From: Actinomycetota bacterium
GTDB taxonomy: Bacteria; Actinomycetota; Thermoleophilia; Gaiellales; Gaiellaceae
Length of the DNA stretch: 64,000 nucleotides
Reading direction: 5' to 3'
Assembly: GCA_046732255.1 (NCBI GenBank)
Contig: JBKPMR010000061.1
Coordinates: 17,436 to 81,435 of the forward strand
Shown: piece after piece, positions 40,877 through 52,581 of the stretch
Layout of the letters: the number at the start of each line of letters is the position of its first letter
How positions within the stretch are numbered: position 1 is the stretch's first letter
Position numbers and translations under genes: made by a program
Notes under the pieces: generated by a model
The model's database searches: none
What the model saw: only the letters and a program-made list of their open reading frames with translations
What the model was told of the DNA's origin: nothing

Positions 40877-41970
40877 GTTCTGGCGACGATCGCGTAGTCG
40901 AGCGGCGCGAAGAGGATCTCGCGAATTCGCTCGTCGACGTCGTCGGCGTGGCGCGGCGCGTTCAGGAAGCGGGTCTCGATTGCCCGGAACCCCGCTTGGG
41001 ACGCCAAGAGCTTGAGCGTCTCGGGGACGAGCGGCTGGGCGTGGGTGAGGTCGGCGAAGTACGAGCGGAGGGCGAGCGGCGAGAGCGGGTTGATCGTCTC
41101 GGCGATCAGCGGGCCGCCGGGGCGCAACTTCTGCGCGGCAAGCTCGAGGAAGCGGAACAGCACGGCCGGCGGCAGATGCTCGACGACCTGCCCGGCAAAG
41201 ATCCCGCCCAGGTTCCCGTCCGGCAGCGCCTCGAGGTAGGCGAGTGCGTCGGCCTGTTCGACGTCGAGCCCTTCTCCTCGTGCGAACGCGACCATGTCGG
41301 CGTCGGCGTCGATGCCACGGGCCTCGACGCCGGCGTCGCGCCGAAGCCCGAGGAGCTCGCCGCGGCCGCAGCCCACGTCGAGCACCGGGGAGGCGTCGCG
41401 AAGGTCGTCCACGTAGGGGCGCTGGCGCTCGCGGACGTCGGTCGTCGAGCCGCGCATCCTCGCCTCGAAGGCGAAGTAGTCGGGGACGGCGGCAGCGGCA
41501 GGCTGTGACGCGACCGTCTGCGGAACCGCGCCGGCACCACGGCGCTCCGCGCGGATCAGCCGCTCCTCGAGCTCGCCGAGGGTGCGCTCGGCCTCTGCGC
41601 GGGACGTCTCGCCGCGGTCGACCTCCTCCAGAATCCCGTCGACCATCTTCAGGACGACGTCGTTGAAGGACCGCTGCTCCGCCGCCAGGGGCTCCACGTA
41701 CCAGCGCAGGAACGGCCTGAGGATGCGCTTCAGCGGATACGCGACCCAGCCCTTCAGCCCCGGGCGCCGCTCCAGCGGGCGGTCGGCCGAGACGGACCAG
41801 AGCCGCTCAGCGCGGTGCCGGGCGGCGAGCAGGCGCCCGCGTCCCTCGGCGGTGCCGTTCCGGCCGCCGGCGAGCTCCTCGCGGAGCCGCTCGACCAGCG
41901 CGTTCACGTCCACCTCCGAAGCGGTGGAAATCCCCGAAGCATGGCTCGACGACTCGGCGCTACCGGGCAC
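40873..41970 (-). CDS. SAM methyltransferase with N-terminal coiled-coil region
   Basis: 365 aa. N-terminal ~130 aa are helical and charged (ERTLGELEERLIRAERR), then VLDVGCGRGELL...GIFAGQVVEHL. Confidence 0.75.
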   Translation of the reverse strand: MPGSAESSSHASGISTASEVDVNALVERLREELAGGRNGTAEGRGRLLAARHRAERLWSVSADRPLERRPGLKGWVAYPLKRILRPFLRWYVEPLAAEQRSFNDVVLKMVDGILEEVDRGETSRAEAERTLGELEERLIRAERRGAGAVPQTVASQPAAAAVPDYFAFEARMRGSTTDVRERQRPYVDDLRDASPVLDVGCGRGELLGLRRDAGVEARGIDADADMVAFARGEGLDVEQADALAYLEALPDGNLGGIFAGQVVEHLPPAVLFRFLELAAQKLRPGGPLIAETINPLSPLALRSYFADLTHAQPLVPETLKLLASQAGFRAIETRFLNAPRHADDVDERIREILFAPLDYAIVART

Positions 41971-50586: not shown

Positions 50587-51879
50587 GTGTCTCAGGCCGA
50601 CCTGTCGATCGCCTCGGAGCCGCGGGAGTCAGCCGTCCACCGGCTCCTTCGGGCACCGCTGACACCGTGGTACCGGTTGGCGACCACGGGCACGTGGCTC
50701 GCGGCCGTGTGGGCGACCACCCACTGGTACTCGTGGCAGCGGACCATCGATCTGCTGTTCGGCTCGGACGTGGTCGAGTACGAGCGCGTCGCCCGGGCGG
50801 CACCCGGCTTCACGAATGAGCCGCTGCCGTCGCAGCACGCCGACCGGTTCGTCCCGCATTACCTGATCGGCCTGATCTCGGACGCGCTCCGTGTCGACGA
50901 CCGGATCGTCTACTACGTGGTCGCGTTCGTCCTCCTGGGCTTGATCGTGCTCCTGGTCGACCGGCTGATCGCGCCGCTGGGCCTCCGCCGGCTCGAGTAC
51001 GCGGTCGCGATCGGCGCGTTGATCGGGAACCCGTACATCTTTCGCTTTCTCGCCATCTGCCCCGGCCGCCTGGCCGACTCGGTGTTCATCCTCGGCGGGC
51101 TGGTCGCGCTGCTCGGCCTACTACGCGGCAACGGCTGGCTGCTGGTCGGCGGGCTGGCGGCGGCCACGTGCGGACGCAGCGAGGCGGTGTTCCCGCTCGC
51201 GGCGCTGGCGCCGTTCGGCGTGCTCTTGTCGCAGGAATGGCGGGGGAAGACACCGCGGGTGCGGATCACATCCGCCGTGCTCGCCCTCGGCGTCCCGCTC
51301 GCGGTCTACGGGCTCCTGCGCCTGGCCGACCACACGTTCTCGGTGCGCGACCACCCCAAGTTCTTCGGGCTGACGATCTTCGGAACGTTCCGCGACCTGC
51401 CGGAGAGCGGCGGGCGCTTCGGGCTCCATATCGCCCGGATCATCGTCGGCATCGCCGGCGCCCTCGCCGTCCTGGTCGGAGCGCTGGCGGCAAGGCGGAT
51501 CGGCCGTTTCTCGGCCCTGCCGTTGGCGTTCTGGGCAGGCCTCGCCGGTGGAATCGCCGTCTCCGGCGAGGCGCTCGTGCTCAACCCCAAGTGGATCAAC
51601 GGCAGCGAGCCGCTGCTCTCGGCACTCGGCGCCGCCTTCTTCGCCGTCGCCGCCGCGGCCGCGCTCGCCTCGCTGGACATCGGGCGCTGGCGGCTCCAGG
51701 TCACCGGCGGCCTGGTCGCGCTCGGGGCGCTCGCCGTGCTCTCGCTGAACCATCGGTATGCGGCGATCACGCCGGTCTCGACGCCCGGCCAGTTCGCGGC
51801 GCTCACGGCGGTGTTCGCAGTCGTGGCCGCGGCGGCAATCGCCTTCGGTGGCTCGCGCGAGCGGTCGGCAGAGTCCTGA
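50587..51879 (+). CDS. polytopic membrane protein (polymerase/ligase- or GT-C-like, unassigned)
   Basis: 430 aa, about 11 hydrophobic segments. I recognise no soluble-domain motifs. GTG start uncertain. Confidence 0.45.
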   Translation: MSQADLSIASEPRESAVHRLLRAPLTPWYRLATTGTWLAAVWATTHWYSWQRTIDLLFGSDVVEYERVARAAPGFTNEPLPSQHADRFVPHYLIGLISDALRVDDRIVYYVVAFVLLGLIVLLVDRLIAPLGLRRLEYAVAIGALIGNPYIFRFLAICPGRLADSVFILGGLVALLGLLRGNGWLLVGGLAAATCGRSEAVFPLAALAPFGVLLSQEWRGKTPRVRITSAVLALGVPLAVYGLLRLADHTFSVRDHPKFFGLTIFGTFRDLPESGGRFGLHIARIIVGIAGALAVLVGALAARRIGRFSALPLAFWAGLAGGIAVSGEALVLNPKWINGSEPLLSALGAAFFAVAAAAALASLDIGRWRLQVTGGLVALGALAVLSLNHRYAAITPVSTPGQFAALTAVFAVVAAAAIAFGGSRERSAES

Positions 51880-51966
51880 GCCGTTACCGCACAGTCACGA
51901 ACGTGTGCCGATACGCGGACCGCTCCCGATCGAGCGCGATTGCACCGTACTGTGGACGACGGCGTC

Positions 51967-52053
51967 GGAGGGTGAAATCCCGAGGCGGGATGAGCAGTTG
52001 AGAGCTGACTCGACCGACGCGAGTCGGTTCCGGTTCGAGTCCGGCGCCCTCCG
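51967..52053 (+). tRNA. tRNA-like gene with non-canonical 8/4 cloverleaf, long variable arm, anticodon GAG (allo-tRNA-like)
   Basis: 8-bp acceptor (51967-51974 with 52045-52052). D-arm AUCCCG/CGGGAU with a tiny loop. Anticodon loop UUGAGAG. Variable arm ACCGAC-GCGA-GUCGGU. 4-bp T-stem CCGG/CCGG with loop UUCGAGU. Discriminator G52053. No CCA in register. Folded by hand. Confidence 0.55.
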
Positions 52054-52118
52054 CGCCAACACAGCTACGATAGTTGGAAGCTCTCAGCTGCTCGCGGGCA
52101 GTCAGCCCGTTTCACCTT

Positions 52119-52142
52119 GGAGCCCGTCTCACGGCGGGCTCC
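52119..52142 (+). terminator. GC hairpin downstream of the tRNA-like gene
   Basis: GGAGCCCG-TCTCACGG-CGGGCTCC followed by GAACTTTCCC. 65 nt after the tRNA-like 3' end. Could equally serve the convergent DUF2304 operon. Confidence 0.35.
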
Positions 52143-52230
52143 GAACTTTCCCGGTCGTGCCCACCGACCTCTGATGTCAGCCATATGTGACAGCCCGGAC
52201 GGGTGAACCGGCCGGCTCGGCTAGGCAGGC

Positions 52231-52581
52231 CTAGTCGTGTTCGCGCAGACGCTGCTCGAGCAGAGCCAGCCGCTGGGCGAGCATCGTGTTCTGGTCGTGC
52301 AGCTTCGAGATCACCGTCGAGTAGTGCAGCAGCACGAGCAGGACGAAGAGCGCGCCGACCGCGAACAGGACCGCGGGCGGATACGTCTCGATCCCGACCC
52401 AGCCGGCGATCGTGTTCAGACCGGAGCGCCACAGCGACAGCGCGAGCAGGACGACGCCCGTGAGCAGCCAGAGCAGCGCGTAGCGCTCGCGCAGCCGCCG
52501 GCTGCGGATCAGCTCGAGCACGACGAGGATCAGGATCACCGAGGCGATCGCGGCGACGATGGAGACGACGAGCGGGGTCAC
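52231..52581 (-). CDS. DUF2304-family small membrane protein
   Basis: 116 aa. Three TM segments plus a C-terminal helix, ...IRSRRLRERYALLWL...LHYSTVISKL. GTGA overlap with the upstream GT2. Confidence 0.75.
   Translation of the reverse strand: MTPLVVSIVAAIASVILILVVLELIRSRRLRERYALLWLLTGVVLLALSLWRSGLNTIAGWVGIETYPPAVLFAVGALFVLLVLLHYSTVISKLHDQNTMLAQRLALLEQRLREHD

What the first reader, a model, noticed from the sequence alone, without database searches (positions are those of the whole stretch)
51967..52053. Non-canonical tRNA-like gene: 8/4 acceptor/T geometry, tRNA-Sec-like D-arm, long GNRA-capped variable arm, anticodon GAG (allo-tRNA-like)
The 350-nt, lower-GC gap between 51879 and 52231 contains an 87-nt stretch whose + strand folds into a tight cloverleaf that is not a standard tRNA.
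- Acceptor: 51967-51974 pairs with 52045-52052 (8 bp, one G.U), followed by an AA linker.
- D-arm: 51977-51991, AUCCCG/CGGGAU, 5-6 bp with only 3-5 loop nt. There is no U8, A14 or large D-loop.
- Anticodon arm: 51992-52011, 6 bp with bulged A52008. The loop UUGAGAG gives U33, anticodon GAG (52000-52002) and A37.
- Variable arm: 52013-52028, ACCGAC/GUCGGU closed by a GCGA tetraloop.
- T-arm: 52030-52044, only 4 bp (CCGG/CCGG), with the consensus-like loop UUCGAGU.
- Discriminator G52053; CCA is not encoded in register.
A 12-bp 8/4 branch, a tRNA-Sec-like D-arm and a long V-arm are the hallmarks I recall for allo-tRNAs (Mukai et al., Nucleic Acids Res 2017, cited from memory). A long V-arm plus G73 are SerRS identity features, whereas GAG decodes Leu CUC/CUU, which are very frequent codons in this genome. 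So the molecule is either a Leu-to-Ser missense tRNA (potentially toxic, presumably tightly controlled), a regulatory tRNA-like ncRNA, or a decaying gene. It sits inside the glycan region next to a TA-rich neighbourhood.
Basis: partly seen in the sequence, partly recalled or inferred. Interest (0 to 1): 0.85.

Follow-up and report, generated by a model that had tools for sequence, protein, structure and literature searches.

The report
Odd tRNA with its own antisense RNA
The flagged stretch is a real, conserved, selenocysteine-tRNA-shaped "allo-tRNA" gene of soil Gaiellaceae bacteria. In nearly every relative it is followed by a short RNA segment that matches that copy's own anticodon arm, which suggests a built-in antidote for a tRNA that would mistranslate very common codons.

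Summary
The cloverleaf is real. It is the minimum-free-energy fold (z = -4.8) and a full-length but sub-threshold Rfam tRNA-Sec match. A metagenome scan found more than 50 homologs, and their covariation supports the fold: 96% of cells pair and 16 of 31 pairs carry compensatory changes.

The geometry is allo-tRNA-like: 8 (or 9)/4 acceptor/T branch, long D-stem, long V-arm, G73. The host lineage, Gaiellaceae (Actinomycetota), is not reported for allo-tRNAs in the papers I read.

The conserved unit is about 200 nt (51948-52143), not 87 nt. Downstream lie:
- an invariant TANNNT box;
- a 15-nt segment complementary to that copy's own anticodon stem-loop (13 of 15 pairs covary, including the anticodon);
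- a hairpin;
- UUCACC, which pairs with acceptor GGUGAA;
- a terminator-like hairpin.

Family anticodons (GAG, GAC, CAC, CAG and three rarer ones) nearly always have A35 and match the commonest hydrophobic codons. The module is a 370-nt insertion absent from a 95%-identical relative.

Best reading: a missense tRNA held in check by a cognate antisense sRNA, in toxin-antitoxin style. Expression and charging are untested.

The parts
51861..52230 (.). 370-nt insertion relative to close relatives. It sits between the convergent 430-aa membrane-protein gene and the DUF2304 gene, and it replaces the last few codons of the 430-aa gene.
   Evidence: In L011 (95% aa identity), L001, L002 and a fourth contig the two genes overlap by 4 nt. 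BLAST aligns window 51400-51860 and 52231-52405 to adjacent positions of L011.
51948..51953 (+). Putative -10 box P1 (TACTGT), 13 nt upstream of G51967. This is an inferred promoter of the tRNA-like gene.
   Evidence: A TANNNT motif ends 8-13 nt upstream of G1 in 43 of 57 family members. T, A, C and the final T are invariant or at least 90% conserved in alignment A4.
51967..52053 (+). Allo-tRNA-like gene with anticodon GAG (52000-52002). Acceptor 51967-74 / 52045-52, D-arm 51977-91, anticodon arm 51992-52011, V-arm 52013-28, T-arm 52030-44, G73 = 52053. An optional ninth pair is C51966:G52053.
   Evidence: MFE fold with z = -4.76. Rfam tRNA-Sec 33.8 bits. Family model R1 106.2 bits. Covariation: 96% of cells paired, 16 of 31 pairs with double changes, slid controls below 48%.
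52066..52071 (+). Putative -10 box P2 (TACGAT), 7 nt upstream of the anti-segment. This is an inferred promoter of the antisense sRNA.
   Evidence: In 44 of 44 modules that have an anti-segment, a TANNNT ends 4-7 nt upstream of the start of complementarity. This holds although the tRNA-to-segment spacer ranges from 14 to 61 nt. The background chance is about 0.03 per locus. T1, A2 and T6 are invariant in A4.
52079..52093 (+). Anti-anticodon-arm segment AGCUCUCAGCUGCUC. It is complementary to 51992-52006, i.e. the 5' strand of the anticodon stem, the whole loop including the anticodon, and two further nt.
   Evidence: 15 pairs, 13 with compensatory changes, 97.2% of cells paired. Self duplex score 26.7 against 12.4 +/- 3.9 for non-self. 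G.U outnumbers A.C 23 to 6 on the + strand.
52094..52110 (+). Conserved hairpin 1 (GCGGGC-AGUCA-GCCCGU) of the antisense part. In the duplex it lies opposite the tRNA D-arm.
   Evidence: 6 pairs, 99.4% paired, 2 with double changes.
52111..52118 (+). UUCACC(UU), complementary to GGUGAA at 51971-51976 (acceptor positions 5-8 plus linker). In the window the pairing extends to A51969.
   Evidence: 6 pairs, 96.8% paired. Copies with GGUUGAA carry UUCAACC (UA in 5 sequences at the covarying pair).
52119..52150 (+). Terminator-like hairpin (GGAGCCCGUC-UCAC-GGCGGGCUCC) followed by a weak U-tract (GAACUUUC).
   Evidence: 10 pairs, 100% paired in 26 sequences, 2 with double changes. In the sulfite-oxidase context it abuts the stop codon of the convergent gene. 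In L125 a group II intron begins about 8 nt after it. The simple terminator scan did not call it because the T-run is short.

Best explanation
Window 51948-52143 is a compact two-RNA module on the + strand.

(1) An allo-tRNA-type gene (51967-52053). It has an 8-bp acceptor stem (9 bp if C51966:G52053 counts), a 4-bp T-stem, a tRNA-Sec-like D-arm, a 6-bp anticodon stem, a long V-arm and G73. These are seryl-tRNA-synthetase-type identity features, yet the anticodon is GAG, which reads Leu CUC.

(2) Directly downstream and in the same direction is an antisense sRNA of about 75 nt. It has its own -10 box (52066-52071) and runs to a terminator hairpin (52119-52142).
- Its 5' end (52079-52093) pairs with the tRNA's anticodon loop and the 5' strand of the anticodon stem.
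- Its UUCACC (52111-52116) pairs with GGUGAA of the acceptor 5' strand and linker.
- Its hairpin 1 faces the D-arm.

Proposed mechanism. The sRNA, or the same sequence as the 3' trailer of a read-through transcript, docks on the anticodon loop. It then strand-invades and pulls the cloverleaf into an extended, non-tRNA fold. This masks the anticodon and breaks the acceptor stem. A tRNA that would put Ser (Ala in some relatives) at very common hydrophobic codons is thus kept inactive unless the sRNA falls away. This is RNA-RNA toxin-antitoxin logic, or switchable mistranslation. The module is gained and lost between close relatives.

Shown by computation: the cloverleaf, the cognate complementarity and its covariation, the conserved TANNNT boxes, the terminator-like hairpin, and the insertion.

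Inferred only: transcription, processing, aminoacylation, decoding, toxicity, and action in trans.
For: Cloverleaf:
- It is the MFE fold with z = -4.76.
- 52 homologs are 96% paired, against less than 48% for slid controls. All 6 anticodon-stem pairs, 4 V-arm pairs, 3 D-stem pairs and 3 acceptor pairs show compensatory changes.

tRNA-like constraints that pairing alone would not impose:
- The loop is 7 nt in 47 of 48 sequences. Position 32 is a pyrimidine in 44 of 47, position 33 in 47 of 47, and position 37 is a purine in 46 of 47.
- The GG of the D-loop is invariant; the T-loop UUCGAGU is as well, but my search pattern required it.
- ARAGORN independently calls about half the homologs as tRNA-Leu, tRNA-Val or tRNA-Thr.

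Cognate antisense:
- Each copy's downstream segment matches its own anticodon arm: self score 26.7 against 12.4 +/- 3.9 for non-self.
- 13 of 15 pairs covary, including positions 33, 34, 36 and 38; 97.2% of cells pair.
- GGUGAA:UUCACC pairs in 96.8% of cells, and GGUUGAA covaries with UUCAACC.
- G.U outnumbers A.C 23 to 6 in this helix and 61 to 14 overall. That points to RNA pairing on the + strand rather than a DNA palindrome.

Separate promoter:
- TANNNT lies 4-7 nt before the complementary segment in 44 of 44 modules, whatever the spacer length.

Energetics:
- The extended fold beats the cloverleaf in all 24 evaluable homologs.
- Bimolecular ddG is -3 to -24 kcal/mol, and -17 for the window.
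- The sRNA seed is about 57% unpaired.

Toxicity logic:
- Family anticodons are GAG 20, GAC 14, CAC 5, CAG 5, and GAU, GAA and GGU once each. A35 is present in 46 of 47.
- CUC and GUC are the 2nd and 4th commonest codons in the window.
- A Silvibacterium (8/4) allo-tRNA-GAG inserts Ser at CUC and kills E. coli, and allo-tRNAs were noted near TA systems (PMC5389517).
- Copies that lack a matching anti-segment are damaged (L134, L169, L137, second copy of L173) or have switched to G3:U70 + A73 (L144).

Mobility:
- The module is a 370-nt insertion absent from a 95%-identical relative.
- It is absent from the same neighbourhoods in three large Gaiellaceae-like contigs.
- It occurs in at least six different gene contexts.
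Against: - There are no expression data of any kind. Both promoters, the terminator and the trans-acting sRNA are inferred from conservation.
- The T-tract after the terminator hairpin is weak, and the consensus scans call neither a promoter nor a terminator here.
- One third of homologs have C33 instead of the near-universal U33, and A37 is unusual for a CUN-reading tRNA. Decoding may therefore be poor or absent.
- CCA is not encoded in register. The acceptor helix can extend into the flanks in some homologs, so the mature ends are uncertain.
- Many homologs sit in conserved housekeeping-type neighbourhoods without TA, transposase or phage genes.
- The homolog set was drawn with a pattern that fixed TGAAA and the T-arm. 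Conservation of those parts, and the apparent narrowness of the family, are therefore partly due to ascertainment.
- The genome-contig scan with a 5'-half pattern found no member.
- The link between missing antisense and damaged tRNA rests on only about 6 cases.
- L142 and L161 have mismatched pairs.
Confidence: 0.5

Rival explanations
1. One non-coding RNA of about 190 nt that switches between two folds: tRNA-like cloverleaf and extended duplex. It is never aminoacylated or used on the ribosome. The tRNA shape would serve as a mimic or handle for a tRNA-binding factor such as RNase P, RNase Z, the CCA enzyme, a synthetase, or an anticodon nuclease or toxin. The anti-segment would act in cis as the off-state.
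For: - There is no terminator between the tRNA-like part and the anti-segment, so P1 transcripts must contain both.
- The extended fold is the more stable one in cis in every homolog.
- C33 in a third of members, and an anticodon that drifts among orthologous sites, argue against a fixed decoding role.
- No member reaches the Rfam tRNA or tRNA-Sec thresholds.
Against: - An invariant TANNNT sits at a fixed 4-7 nt before the anti-segment in 44 of 44 modules, independent of spacer length. This is hard to explain without a second transcription start.
- Anticodon-loop constraints (7 nt, Y32, Y33, R37, A35), G73, a near-invariant acceptor stem and switches to G3:U70 + A73 look like translation and identity features.
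- A related allo-tRNA is known to decode (PMC5389517).
Confidence: 0.25
2. An ordinary functional allo-tRNA gene. The complementary 3' trailer only guides or delays maturation, as a 'pro-tRNA', and has no lasting antidote role.
For: - The cloverleaf covaries and has tRNA-like features.
- Co-transcription from P1 is implied.
- Bacterial tRNA 3' trailers with functions of their own are known (3'ETS-leuZ; my own knowledge).
Against: - It does not explain the conserved P2 box.
- It does not explain the conserved hairpin 1 and UUCACC, which extend pairing into the acceptor strand.
- It does not explain why copies without the segment are degenerate.
Confidence: 0.15
3. A small selfish DNA repeat (MITE-like or recombination site) whose inverted repeats act at the DNA level. 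The cloverleaf would be a relic of a tRNA-derived element.
For: - Presence/absence polymorphism, and a clean 370-nt insertion.
- Several genomic contexts.
- Enrichment at contig ends: 16 of 52 against 7 expected.
- Two copies 4.4 kb apart in L173.
Against: - No terminal inverted repeats, target-site duplication or conserved ends were seen.
- There are no other copies in the 64-kb window.
- Mismatches are biased towards + strand G.U, 61 against 14.
- The U7.G66 pair is invariant.
- Conserved promoter-like boxes and a terminator-like hairpin indicate an expressed RNA.
- No transposase or integrase is nearby.
Confidence: 0.05
4. A chance fold or a decaying pseudogene.
For: ARAGORN and Rfam gathering thresholds do not call it. 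The anticodon stem has a bulged A.
Against: - z = -4.76.
- 106 bits against the family model.
- More than 50 homologs with compensatory changes.
- The bulged nucleotide is itself common in the family.
Confidence: 0.01

Closest known systems
(8/4) allo-tRNAs, in particular Silvibacterium bohemicum allo-tRNA-GAG (Mukai et al., Nucleic Acids Res 2017, PMC5389517)
   Same: - Acceptor/T branch with an 8-bp acceptor and a 4-bp T-stem.
- tRNA-Sec-like long D-stem with a tiny loop, a 6-bp anticodon stem, a long V-arm and G73.
- Non-serine and variable anticodons, including GAG.
- Some members carry G3:U70.
- Found in soil metagenomes.
- Surfaces as a sub-threshold tRNA-Sec model hit.
- Patchy distribution, with degenerate copies.
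   Different: - The host lineage is Gaiellaceae (Actinomycetota). The papers I read list only Clostridia, Proteobacteria and Acidobacteria.
- A possible ninth acceptor pair would make the geometry 9/4.
- The anticodon spectrum is narrow (A35; Leu, Val, Ile and Phe codons).
- Every intact copy has a cognate complementary segment with its own promoter-like box. The allo-tRNA papers I could read do not mention this.
- Sequence homology to the published allo-tRNAs could not be tested, because no sequences are held.
Selenocysteine tRNA (Rfam RF01852)
   Same: The best Rfam match, full length. Shares the long acceptor stem, 6-bp D-stem, 6-bp anticodon stem, long V-arm and G73.
   Different: - 33.8 bits against a gathering score of 47, and no homolog reaches the threshold.
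- The anticodon is GAG or another sense triplet, not UCA.
- The T-stem has 4 bp; the bacterial 8/5 form has 5.
- No sel genes were seen nearby.
Antisense-RNA control and RNA-only toxin-antitoxin pairs (type I antitoxin sRNAs; type VIII pairs such as SdsR/RyeA and CreT/CreA; CopA-CopT kissing complexes). From my own knowledge.
   Same: - A short sRNA with a 5' seed that targets a hairpin loop.
- Pair-specific covariation.
- Adjacent genes.
- A presumably stable target paired with a small regulator.
- Patchy, gain-and-loss distribution.
- The predicted complex of two intermolecular helices flanking two hairpins resembles a four-way junction.
   Different: - The target here is a tRNA-shaped RNA, not an mRNA.
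- The sRNA lies in tandem on the same strand, not overlapping on the opposite strand.
- No toxicity, stability or expression data exist.
T-box riboswitch (my own knowledge)
   Same: An RNA that reads a tRNA both at the anticodon and at the acceptor region, followed by a terminator hairpin.
   Different: - Here 15 + 6-8 nt of full antisense pairing would unfold the tRNA rather than dock on the folded L-shape.
- It pairs with the 5' acceptor strand, not the NCCA end.
- There are no Stem I or T-box motifs and no Rfam hit.
- No gene lies downstream in the same orientation.
Deliberate-mistranslation tRNAs of Actinomycetes (tRNA-ProX with ProRSx; reviewed in PMC11415595)
   Same: A soil actinobacterial accessory tRNA whose identity elements and anticodon disagree.
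   Different: A different tRNA scaffold (canonical tRNA-Pro). It is partnered with a dedicated synthetase gene, not an antisense RNA.
tRNA 3'-trailer-derived regulatory RNA (3'ETS-leuZ sponge; my own knowledge)
   Same: A functional RNA encoded immediately 3' of a tRNA and co-transcribed with it.
   Different: Here the trailer is complementary to its own tRNA and seems to have its own promoter.

Membership tests
allo-tRNA (Mukai et al. 2017) | 12-bp acceptor branch composed as 8/4 (or 9/3) instead of 7/5 | tested here: inconclusive
   [quoted passage not shown] However, C51966:G52053 can add a ninth pair (C:G in 44, U:G in 3 and G:U in 1 of 52 sequences). That would give 9/4, or 13 bp, as in tRNA-Sec. 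The mature ends are unknown.
allo-tRNA (Mukai et al. 2017) | tRNA-Sec-like D-arm: long stem and very small loop | tested here: met
   5-6 bp stem (AUCCCG/CGGGAU) with a 3-5 nt loop containing an invariant GG. Three pairs carry compensatory changes.
allo-tRNA (Mukai et al. 2017) | Long variable arm and extended (6-bp) anticodon stem | tested here: met
   V-arm of 6 bp plus tetraloop, 96% paired, 4 pairs with double changes. Anticodon stem of 6 bp, all 6 pairs covarying.
allo-tRNA (Mukai et al. 2017) | Discriminator G73 or U73 (Ser-type identity), or G3:U70 (Ala-type) in some members | tested here: met
   G73 in 47 of 48 aligned sequences. G3:U70 in 4 of 52. L144 combines G3:U70 with A73.
allo-tRNA (Mukai et al. 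2017) | Aminoacylation by SerRS or AlaRS, and decoding on the ribosome | not testable with these tools
   This needs biochemistry. Only indirect support exists: the anticodon-loop constraints.
allo-tRNA (Mukai et al. 2017) | Sequence relatedness to the published allo-tRNAs | not testable with these tools
   No supplementary sequences are held. Sequence strings were not found in the paper library. No sequences appear in the other allo-tRNA papers I checked.
tRNA-Sec (Rfam RF01852) | Score at or above the curated gathering threshold (47 bits) | tested here: not met
   33.8 bits for the window. No family member in 20 loci reaches it.
tRNA-Sec (Rfam RF01852) | UCA (or other recoding) anticodon, with Sec machinery | tested here: not met
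   The anticodon is GAG. The family uses GAG, GAC, CAC, CAG, GAU, GAA and GGU. No sel genes were seen among the neighbours examined. The whole genome was not available.
Canonical tRNA (Rfam RF00005 / ARAGORN) | 7/5 cloverleaf recognised by standard detectors | tested here: not met
   There is no RF00005 hit in the window or in the homologs. ARAGORN misses the window copy, although it calls about half of the homologs.
Antisense-RNA / RNA-RNA toxin-antitoxin module | Cognate, extended complementarity between two adjacent RNA genes, maintained by covariation | tested here: met
   Helix 1: 13 of 15 pairs covary, 97.2% paired. Helix 2: 96.8% paired. Self score far above non-self.
Antisense-RNA / RNA-RNA toxin-antitoxin module | Independent transcription of the antisense partner | tested here: inconclusive
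   TANNNT lies 4-7 nt upstream in 44 of 44 modules, and a conserved terminator-like hairpin follows. There are no transcript data, and the consensus promoter scan is negative.
Antisense-RNA / RNA-RNA toxin-antitoxin module | Toxicity of one partner and neutralisation by the other | not testable with these tools
   Only circumstantial support: the published toxicity of an allo-tRNA-GAG in E. coli, and orphan copies that are degenerate.
T-box riboswitch | Stem I specifier and T-box antiterminator motifs upstream of a regulated gene | tested here: not met
   There is no Rfam T-box hit even at E <= 10. The next gene downstream is convergent.

The most novel reading that the evidence does not exclude
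An RNA-only toxin-antitoxin (or switchable-mistranslation) cassette. The 'toxin' is a Ser- or Ala-charged allo-tRNA that reads the commonest hydrophobic codons. The 'antitoxin' is a cognate antisense sRNA that unfolds it. Each paralogue carries a private anticodon-arm/anti-arm code that prevents cross-talk. The cassette hops between intergenic sites in Gaiellaceae and could act in abortive infection, persistence or stress-induced proteome diversification.
Probability: 0.3. Interest if true: 0.92.

Novelty: new variant of a known kind. Interest (0 to 1): 0.82.

Why it matters
Since 2017 allo-tRNAs have been a curiosity with no known biology. They can mistranslate and kill E. coli, and nobody knows how their hosts tolerate or use them. 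This locus offers a concrete, testable answer: a dedicated antisense RNA that co-evolves with the anticodon arm.

If that is right, three things follow.
- It would be the first natural regulator that targets a tRNA by unfolding it.
- It would be a new kind of RNA-RNA toxin-antitoxin or controlled-mistranslation system.
- It would supply ready-made orthogonal tRNA/anti-tRNA switch pairs for synthetic biology.

The finding also extends allo-tRNA-like genes to Actinomycetota. It shows that standard annotation misses or mislabels them: Rfam thresholds call none, and ARAGORN calls about half as tRNA-Leu or tRNA-Val.

Tried and rejected
- **Genome-contig scan.** A 5'-half pattern (GGTGAAA...GAGCAGYTNNNAGCTK) gave 81 hits. 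The same kind of pattern in viral contigs gave only chance hits.
- **Viral contigs.** The successful family pattern found only ordinary tRNAs there, so I have no evidence of phage carriage.
- **Plasmids and phages.** BLASTN of the 370-nt insertion found nothing.
- **Source contig.** An exact look-up of the DUF2304 product to identify it failed.
- **Inverted repeat.** I first took 51992-52006 / 52079-52093 for a partial inverted tRNA copy. Within the window alone it is no better than shuffles, and a minus-strand tRNA half is not conserved. It became significant only through cross-homolog covariation.
Rejected.
- **Minus-strand gene.** Rejected: z = -2.2 and the G.U bias favours the + strand.
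- **Conserved protein partner.** I found no synthetase, TA protein, transposase or integrase. The neighbours are sulfite oxidase/DUF192, aldo-keto reductase, luciferase-like monooxygenase/M20 peptidase, acyl-CoA dehydrogenase/EF-G-like GTPase/RecQ, sarcosine oxidase/CBS, or glycan genes.
- **Insertion termini.** Comparing filled and empty sites showed no target duplication or terminal repeats.
- **Published allo-tRNA sequences.** I could not obtain any for direct comparison.
- **Literature.** Searches for a described tRNA/antisense pairing of this kind found nothing relevant.
Full report
**1.

The reverse strand is unremarkable, with z = -2.2.

Standard detectors mostly miss the element.
- ARAGORN reports only an odd 99-nt 'tRNA-Ala' elsewhere in the window.
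- Rfam finds nothing at gathering thresholds, nor in a whole-window E-value scan.
- A local scan of 51850-52250 gives a full-length match to tRNA-Sec (RF01852) at 33.8 bits, below the gathering score of 47, with E = 4.5e-5. That alignment adds a possible ninth acceptor pair, C51966:G52053.

**2. The surroundings: a recent insertion in a Gaiellaceae-like genome**

The gap lies between a 430-aa membrane-protein gene (+) and a DUF2304 gene (-), inside a set of glycosyltransferase and methyltransferase genes. Homologs of the 430-aa protein are soil-metagenome proteins, and the one informatively named hit is from a Gaiellaceae MAG.

In every relative I could fetch, the two genes overlap by 4 nt and there is no gap. 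These relatives are L011 (95% aa identity), L001, L002 and a fourth contig. BLAST and alignments place the boundaries so that window 51861-52230, about 370 nt, is an insertion. The insertion also rewrote the last few codons of the 430-aa gene. Another relative (L005) has a different two-gene insertion at the same junction. The association with the 'glycan region' is therefore incidental.

**3. Finding relatives**

Plasmid and phage collections gave nothing.

A metagenome scan fixed only TGAAA, a 49-74 nt gap and the unusual T-arm context TCCGGTTCGAGTCCGGC. It returned 73 loci, of which 56 are clear homologs. All come from contigs of 66-71% GC.

Neighbour proteins from two different contexts have their best named matches in Gaiellaceae or Actinomycetota MAGs. 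The allo-tRNA papers I read list only Clostridia, Proteobacteria and Acidobacteria as hosts.

One caveat applies throughout. The scan pattern forces conservation of the T-arm, of TGAAA and of the last acceptor pairs, so these parts say nothing about selection.

**4. The cloverleaf is a selected structure**

On a MAFFT alignment of 48 sequences, 93.5% of cells pair and 15 of 31 pairs show changes on both sides. Versions with the 3' partner slid by 1-3 columns pair in less than 48% of cells.

On a model-based alignment of 52 sequences the figures are 96.0% and 16 pairs. All six anticodon-stem pairs, four V-arm pairs, three D-stem pairs and three acceptor pairs covary.

The window copy scores 106.2 bits against the family model, second best of all. 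It is therefore not a decaying copy.

Several features are tRNA-like in ways that helix pairing alone does not require.
- The anticodon loop is 7 nt in 47 of 48 sequences.
- Position 32 is a pyrimidine in 44 of 47, position 33 in 47 of 47 (U 31, C 16), and position 37 is a purine in 46 of 47.
- The D-loop GG is invariant, and G73 is present in 47 of 48.

ARAGORN calls about half of the homologs as tRNA-Leu(gag), tRNA-Val(gac or cac) or tRNA-Thr(ggt). Rfam thresholds call none.

**5. The anticodon is not fixed**

Anticodons in the family are GAG (20), GAC (14), CAC (5), CAG (5), and GAU, GAA and GGU (1 each). A35 is present in 46 of 47 sequences, so nearly all read NUN codons for Leu, Val, Ile or Phe.

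In the window's own genes, CUC is the second and GUC the fourth most used codon, at 61 and 57 per 1000. The acceptor, D and T arms stay nearly identical whatever the anticodon, and G73 is not the discriminator of tRNA-Leu or tRNA-Val. These are therefore not the cell's regular isoacceptors.

Four members have G3:U70. One of them (L144) also has A73, which is an alanine-type identity set.

**6. The main new finding: a cognate complementary partner**

Similarity between the window and the homologs extends from about 51948 to 52143, not just over the 87 nt. Reading the flanks side by side shows a fixed order downstream of the tRNA-like part:
- a TANNNT box;
- 4-7 nt later, a segment of about 15 nt complementary to that copy's own anticodon arm (5' strand, the entire loop, and 2-3 nt beyond);
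- a conserved hairpin;
- UUCACC, complementary to GGUGAA (acceptor positions 5-8 plus linker);
- a strong GC-rich hairpin with a short U-rich tail.

In the window these are 52066-52071, 52079-52093, 52094-52110, 52111-52118 and 52119-52150.

The complementarity is specific to each copy. The best self duplex scores 26.7 on average, against 12.4 +/- 3.9 for non-self combinations.

On a 26-sequence alignment:
- the anticodon-arm/anti-segment helix has 15 pairs, 13 with compensatory changes, and 97.2% of cells paired;
- this includes position 33 (U-A 19, C-G 7), position 34 (G-C 23, C-G 3), position 36 (G-C 16, C-G 10) and position 38;
- GGUGAA:UUCACC pairs in 96.8% of cells, and copies with GGUUGAA carry UUCAACC;
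- hairpin 1 pairs in 99.4% and the terminal hairpin in 100% of cells.

Non-Watson-Crick cells are mostly G.U on the + strand rather than A.C: 23 against 6 in the long helix and 61 against 14 overall. This points to RNA-level pairing of + strand transcripts, not a DNA palindrome or a minus-strand gene.

Within the window alone the 15-nt inverted repeat is not better than shuffles. Its significance comes wholly from the comparative data.

**7. One RNA or two?**

In all 44 modules with an anti-segment, a TANNNT hexamer ends 4-7 nt upstream of the first complementary base. The distance from the tRNA end to that base ranges from 14 to 61 nt, and the background chance of such a hexamer there is about 0.03. 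In the alignment T1, A2 and T6 are invariant while the spacer around them is not. That is the signature of a sigma-A-type -10 element, so I infer a second transcription start at the edge of the complementary segment.

A similar box (TACCGT, TACGGT; window TACTGT at 51948-51953) lies 8-13 nt upstream of G1 in 43 of 57 copies.

No terminator separates the two units, so transcripts from the first box would also carry the anti-segment as a 3' trailer.

The simple consensus scans call neither promoters nor a terminator here. All of this is inference from conservation.

Two side observations fit the final hairpin being a terminator.
- It abuts the stop codon of the convergent sulfite-oxidase gene in one context.
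- In L125 a group II intron begins about 8 nt after it.

**8. Energetics**

For the read-through transcript, the fold that pairs the tRNA 5' half with the downstream segments is more stable than cloverleaf plus hairpins in all 24 evaluable homologs. For the window the values are -90.9 against -77.1 kcal/mol.

As two molecules, tRNA + CCA and a 75-nt sRNA gain -3 to -24 kcal/mol on cofolding, and -17 for the window.

The predicted sRNA has a largely open 5' seed (mean unpaired probability 0.57), hairpin 1, an open UUCACC and the terminal hairpin.

In the complex, two intermolecular helices would flank the tRNA D-arm and the sRNA hairpin. The anticodon would be masked and the acceptor stem opened.

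**9. Distribution**

Homologs occupy at least six gene contexts:
- DUF192 / sulfite oxidase;
- aldo-keto reductase / sulfite oxidase;
- luciferase-like monooxygenase / M20 peptidase;
- acyl-CoA dehydrogenase / EF-G-like GTPase (with a degenerate second copy beyond a RecQ gene);
- sarcosine oxidase / CBS;
- the window's site.

No TA protein, transposase, integrase or synthetase recurs. Some contexts recur across contigs and so look orthologous.

Yet the same neighbourhoods in three megabase-scale Gaiellaceae-like contigs lack the module, and the window has it where a 95%-identical relative does not. Modules lie near contig ends more often than expected: 16 of 52 against 7, P about 3e-4. This hints at repeats or strain variation. 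I found no terminal repeats or target duplications and no copies in viral contigs.

Copies without a matching anti-segment are mostly defective or identity-switched.
- The second copy in L173 has a T-stem mismatch, A73 and no partner.
- L134 and L169 have a broken 3' acceptor strand.
- L137 has a 10-nt loop.
- L161 has an intact tRNA-like part whose anti-segment no longer matches it.
- L144 is intact but Ala-type.

The numbers are small, but they fit a functional dependence.

**10. Interpretation**

Structurally this is an allo-tRNA-like gene. Mukai et al. showed that an (8/4) allo-tRNA-GAG from Silvibacterium inserts Ser at CUC and arrests E. coli growth. They also noted allo-tRNAs near TA systems and transposon remnants.

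I commit to the following mechanism. The module encodes a potentially proteotoxic missense tRNA together with a cognate antisense sRNA, which is also present as the 3' trailer. The sRNA docks on the anticodon loop, invades the anticodon stem and the acceptor 5' strand, and holds the tRNA in an inactive extended fold. This is either an RNA-RNA toxin-antitoxin-like cassette or a switch for conditional mistranslation.

Shown: the structure, the complementarity, the covariation, the conserved boxes and the insertion.
Inferred: transcription, processing, charging, decoding, toxicity and action in trans.

Points against a decoding role:
- C33 in a third of members;
- A37;
- no CCA in register;
- an acceptor helix that can extend into the flanks in some copies.

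The main rival is therefore a single bistable tRNA-mimic RNA with no role in translation.

**11. Novelty**

I found no description of a tRNA paired with a covarying antisense partner of this kind in the allo-tRNA papers, two reviews or my keyword and sequence searches. The region beyond the tRNA-like part matches no Rfam family.

Direct sequence comparison with the published allo-tRNAs was not possible. I therefore file the tRNA part as allo-tRNA-like by structure only. I rate the whole as a new variant of a known kind.

Noticed in passing
window 40887-40985 (+): ARAGORN reports a 99-nt 'tRNA-Ala (cgc)'. There is no Rfam tRNA hit at gathering thresholds or at E <= 1, and no hit to the family model. 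It is probably a false positive.
   Followed up: partly
L125 about 337-2222: A group II intron (Rfam RF02001, RF01998, RF00029) starts about 8 nt after the module's terminal hairpin (GTACGCCCGG...). Terminator-targeting bacterial introns insert in this way, which fits the hairpin being an intrinsic terminator.
   Followed up: partly
L005 5324-7811: At the same convergent-gene junction where the window has the 370-nt insertion, this relative has a different insertion of two genes (164 aa; 542 aa with BTAD/Bmp domains). The junction looks like an insertion hotspot.
   Followed up: no
L173 1886-1973 and 6322-6408: Two family copies lie 4.4 kb apart and flank an EF-G-like GTPase gene and a RecQ helicase gene. 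The second copy has a T-stem mismatch, A73 and no complementary partner.
   Followed up: partly
L144 2740-2825 (-): An intact family member with G3:U70 and A73 (alanine-type identity set) and anticodon GAG. It lacks the downstream antisense segment altogether.
   Followed up: partly
L142 1331-1528; L161 566-760: These are modules whose anti-segment does not match their own anticodon stem. L142's anti-segment matches L116's arm, and its cofold gain is only -3.3 kcal/mol. They may be recombinant or decaying pairs.
   Followed up: no
L115-L187 (family loci): Modules lie within 150 nt of a contig end in 16 of 52 contigs, against about 7 expected (P about 3e-4). This suggests assembly breaks at a repeated or strain-variable element.
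   Followed up: partly
It falls outside the region conserved in homologs.
   Followed up: no
window 51861-51879: The insertion replaced the C-terminal codons of the 430-aa membrane-protein gene. The reading frame now ends inside the inserted DNA at TGA 51877-51879.
   Followed up: partly
L120 1115-1194: A weak second hit to the family model (22.7 bits) lies just after the module's terminator. It includes another TCCGGTTCGAGTCCGGCG T-arm and may be a partial tandem copy.
   Followed up: no
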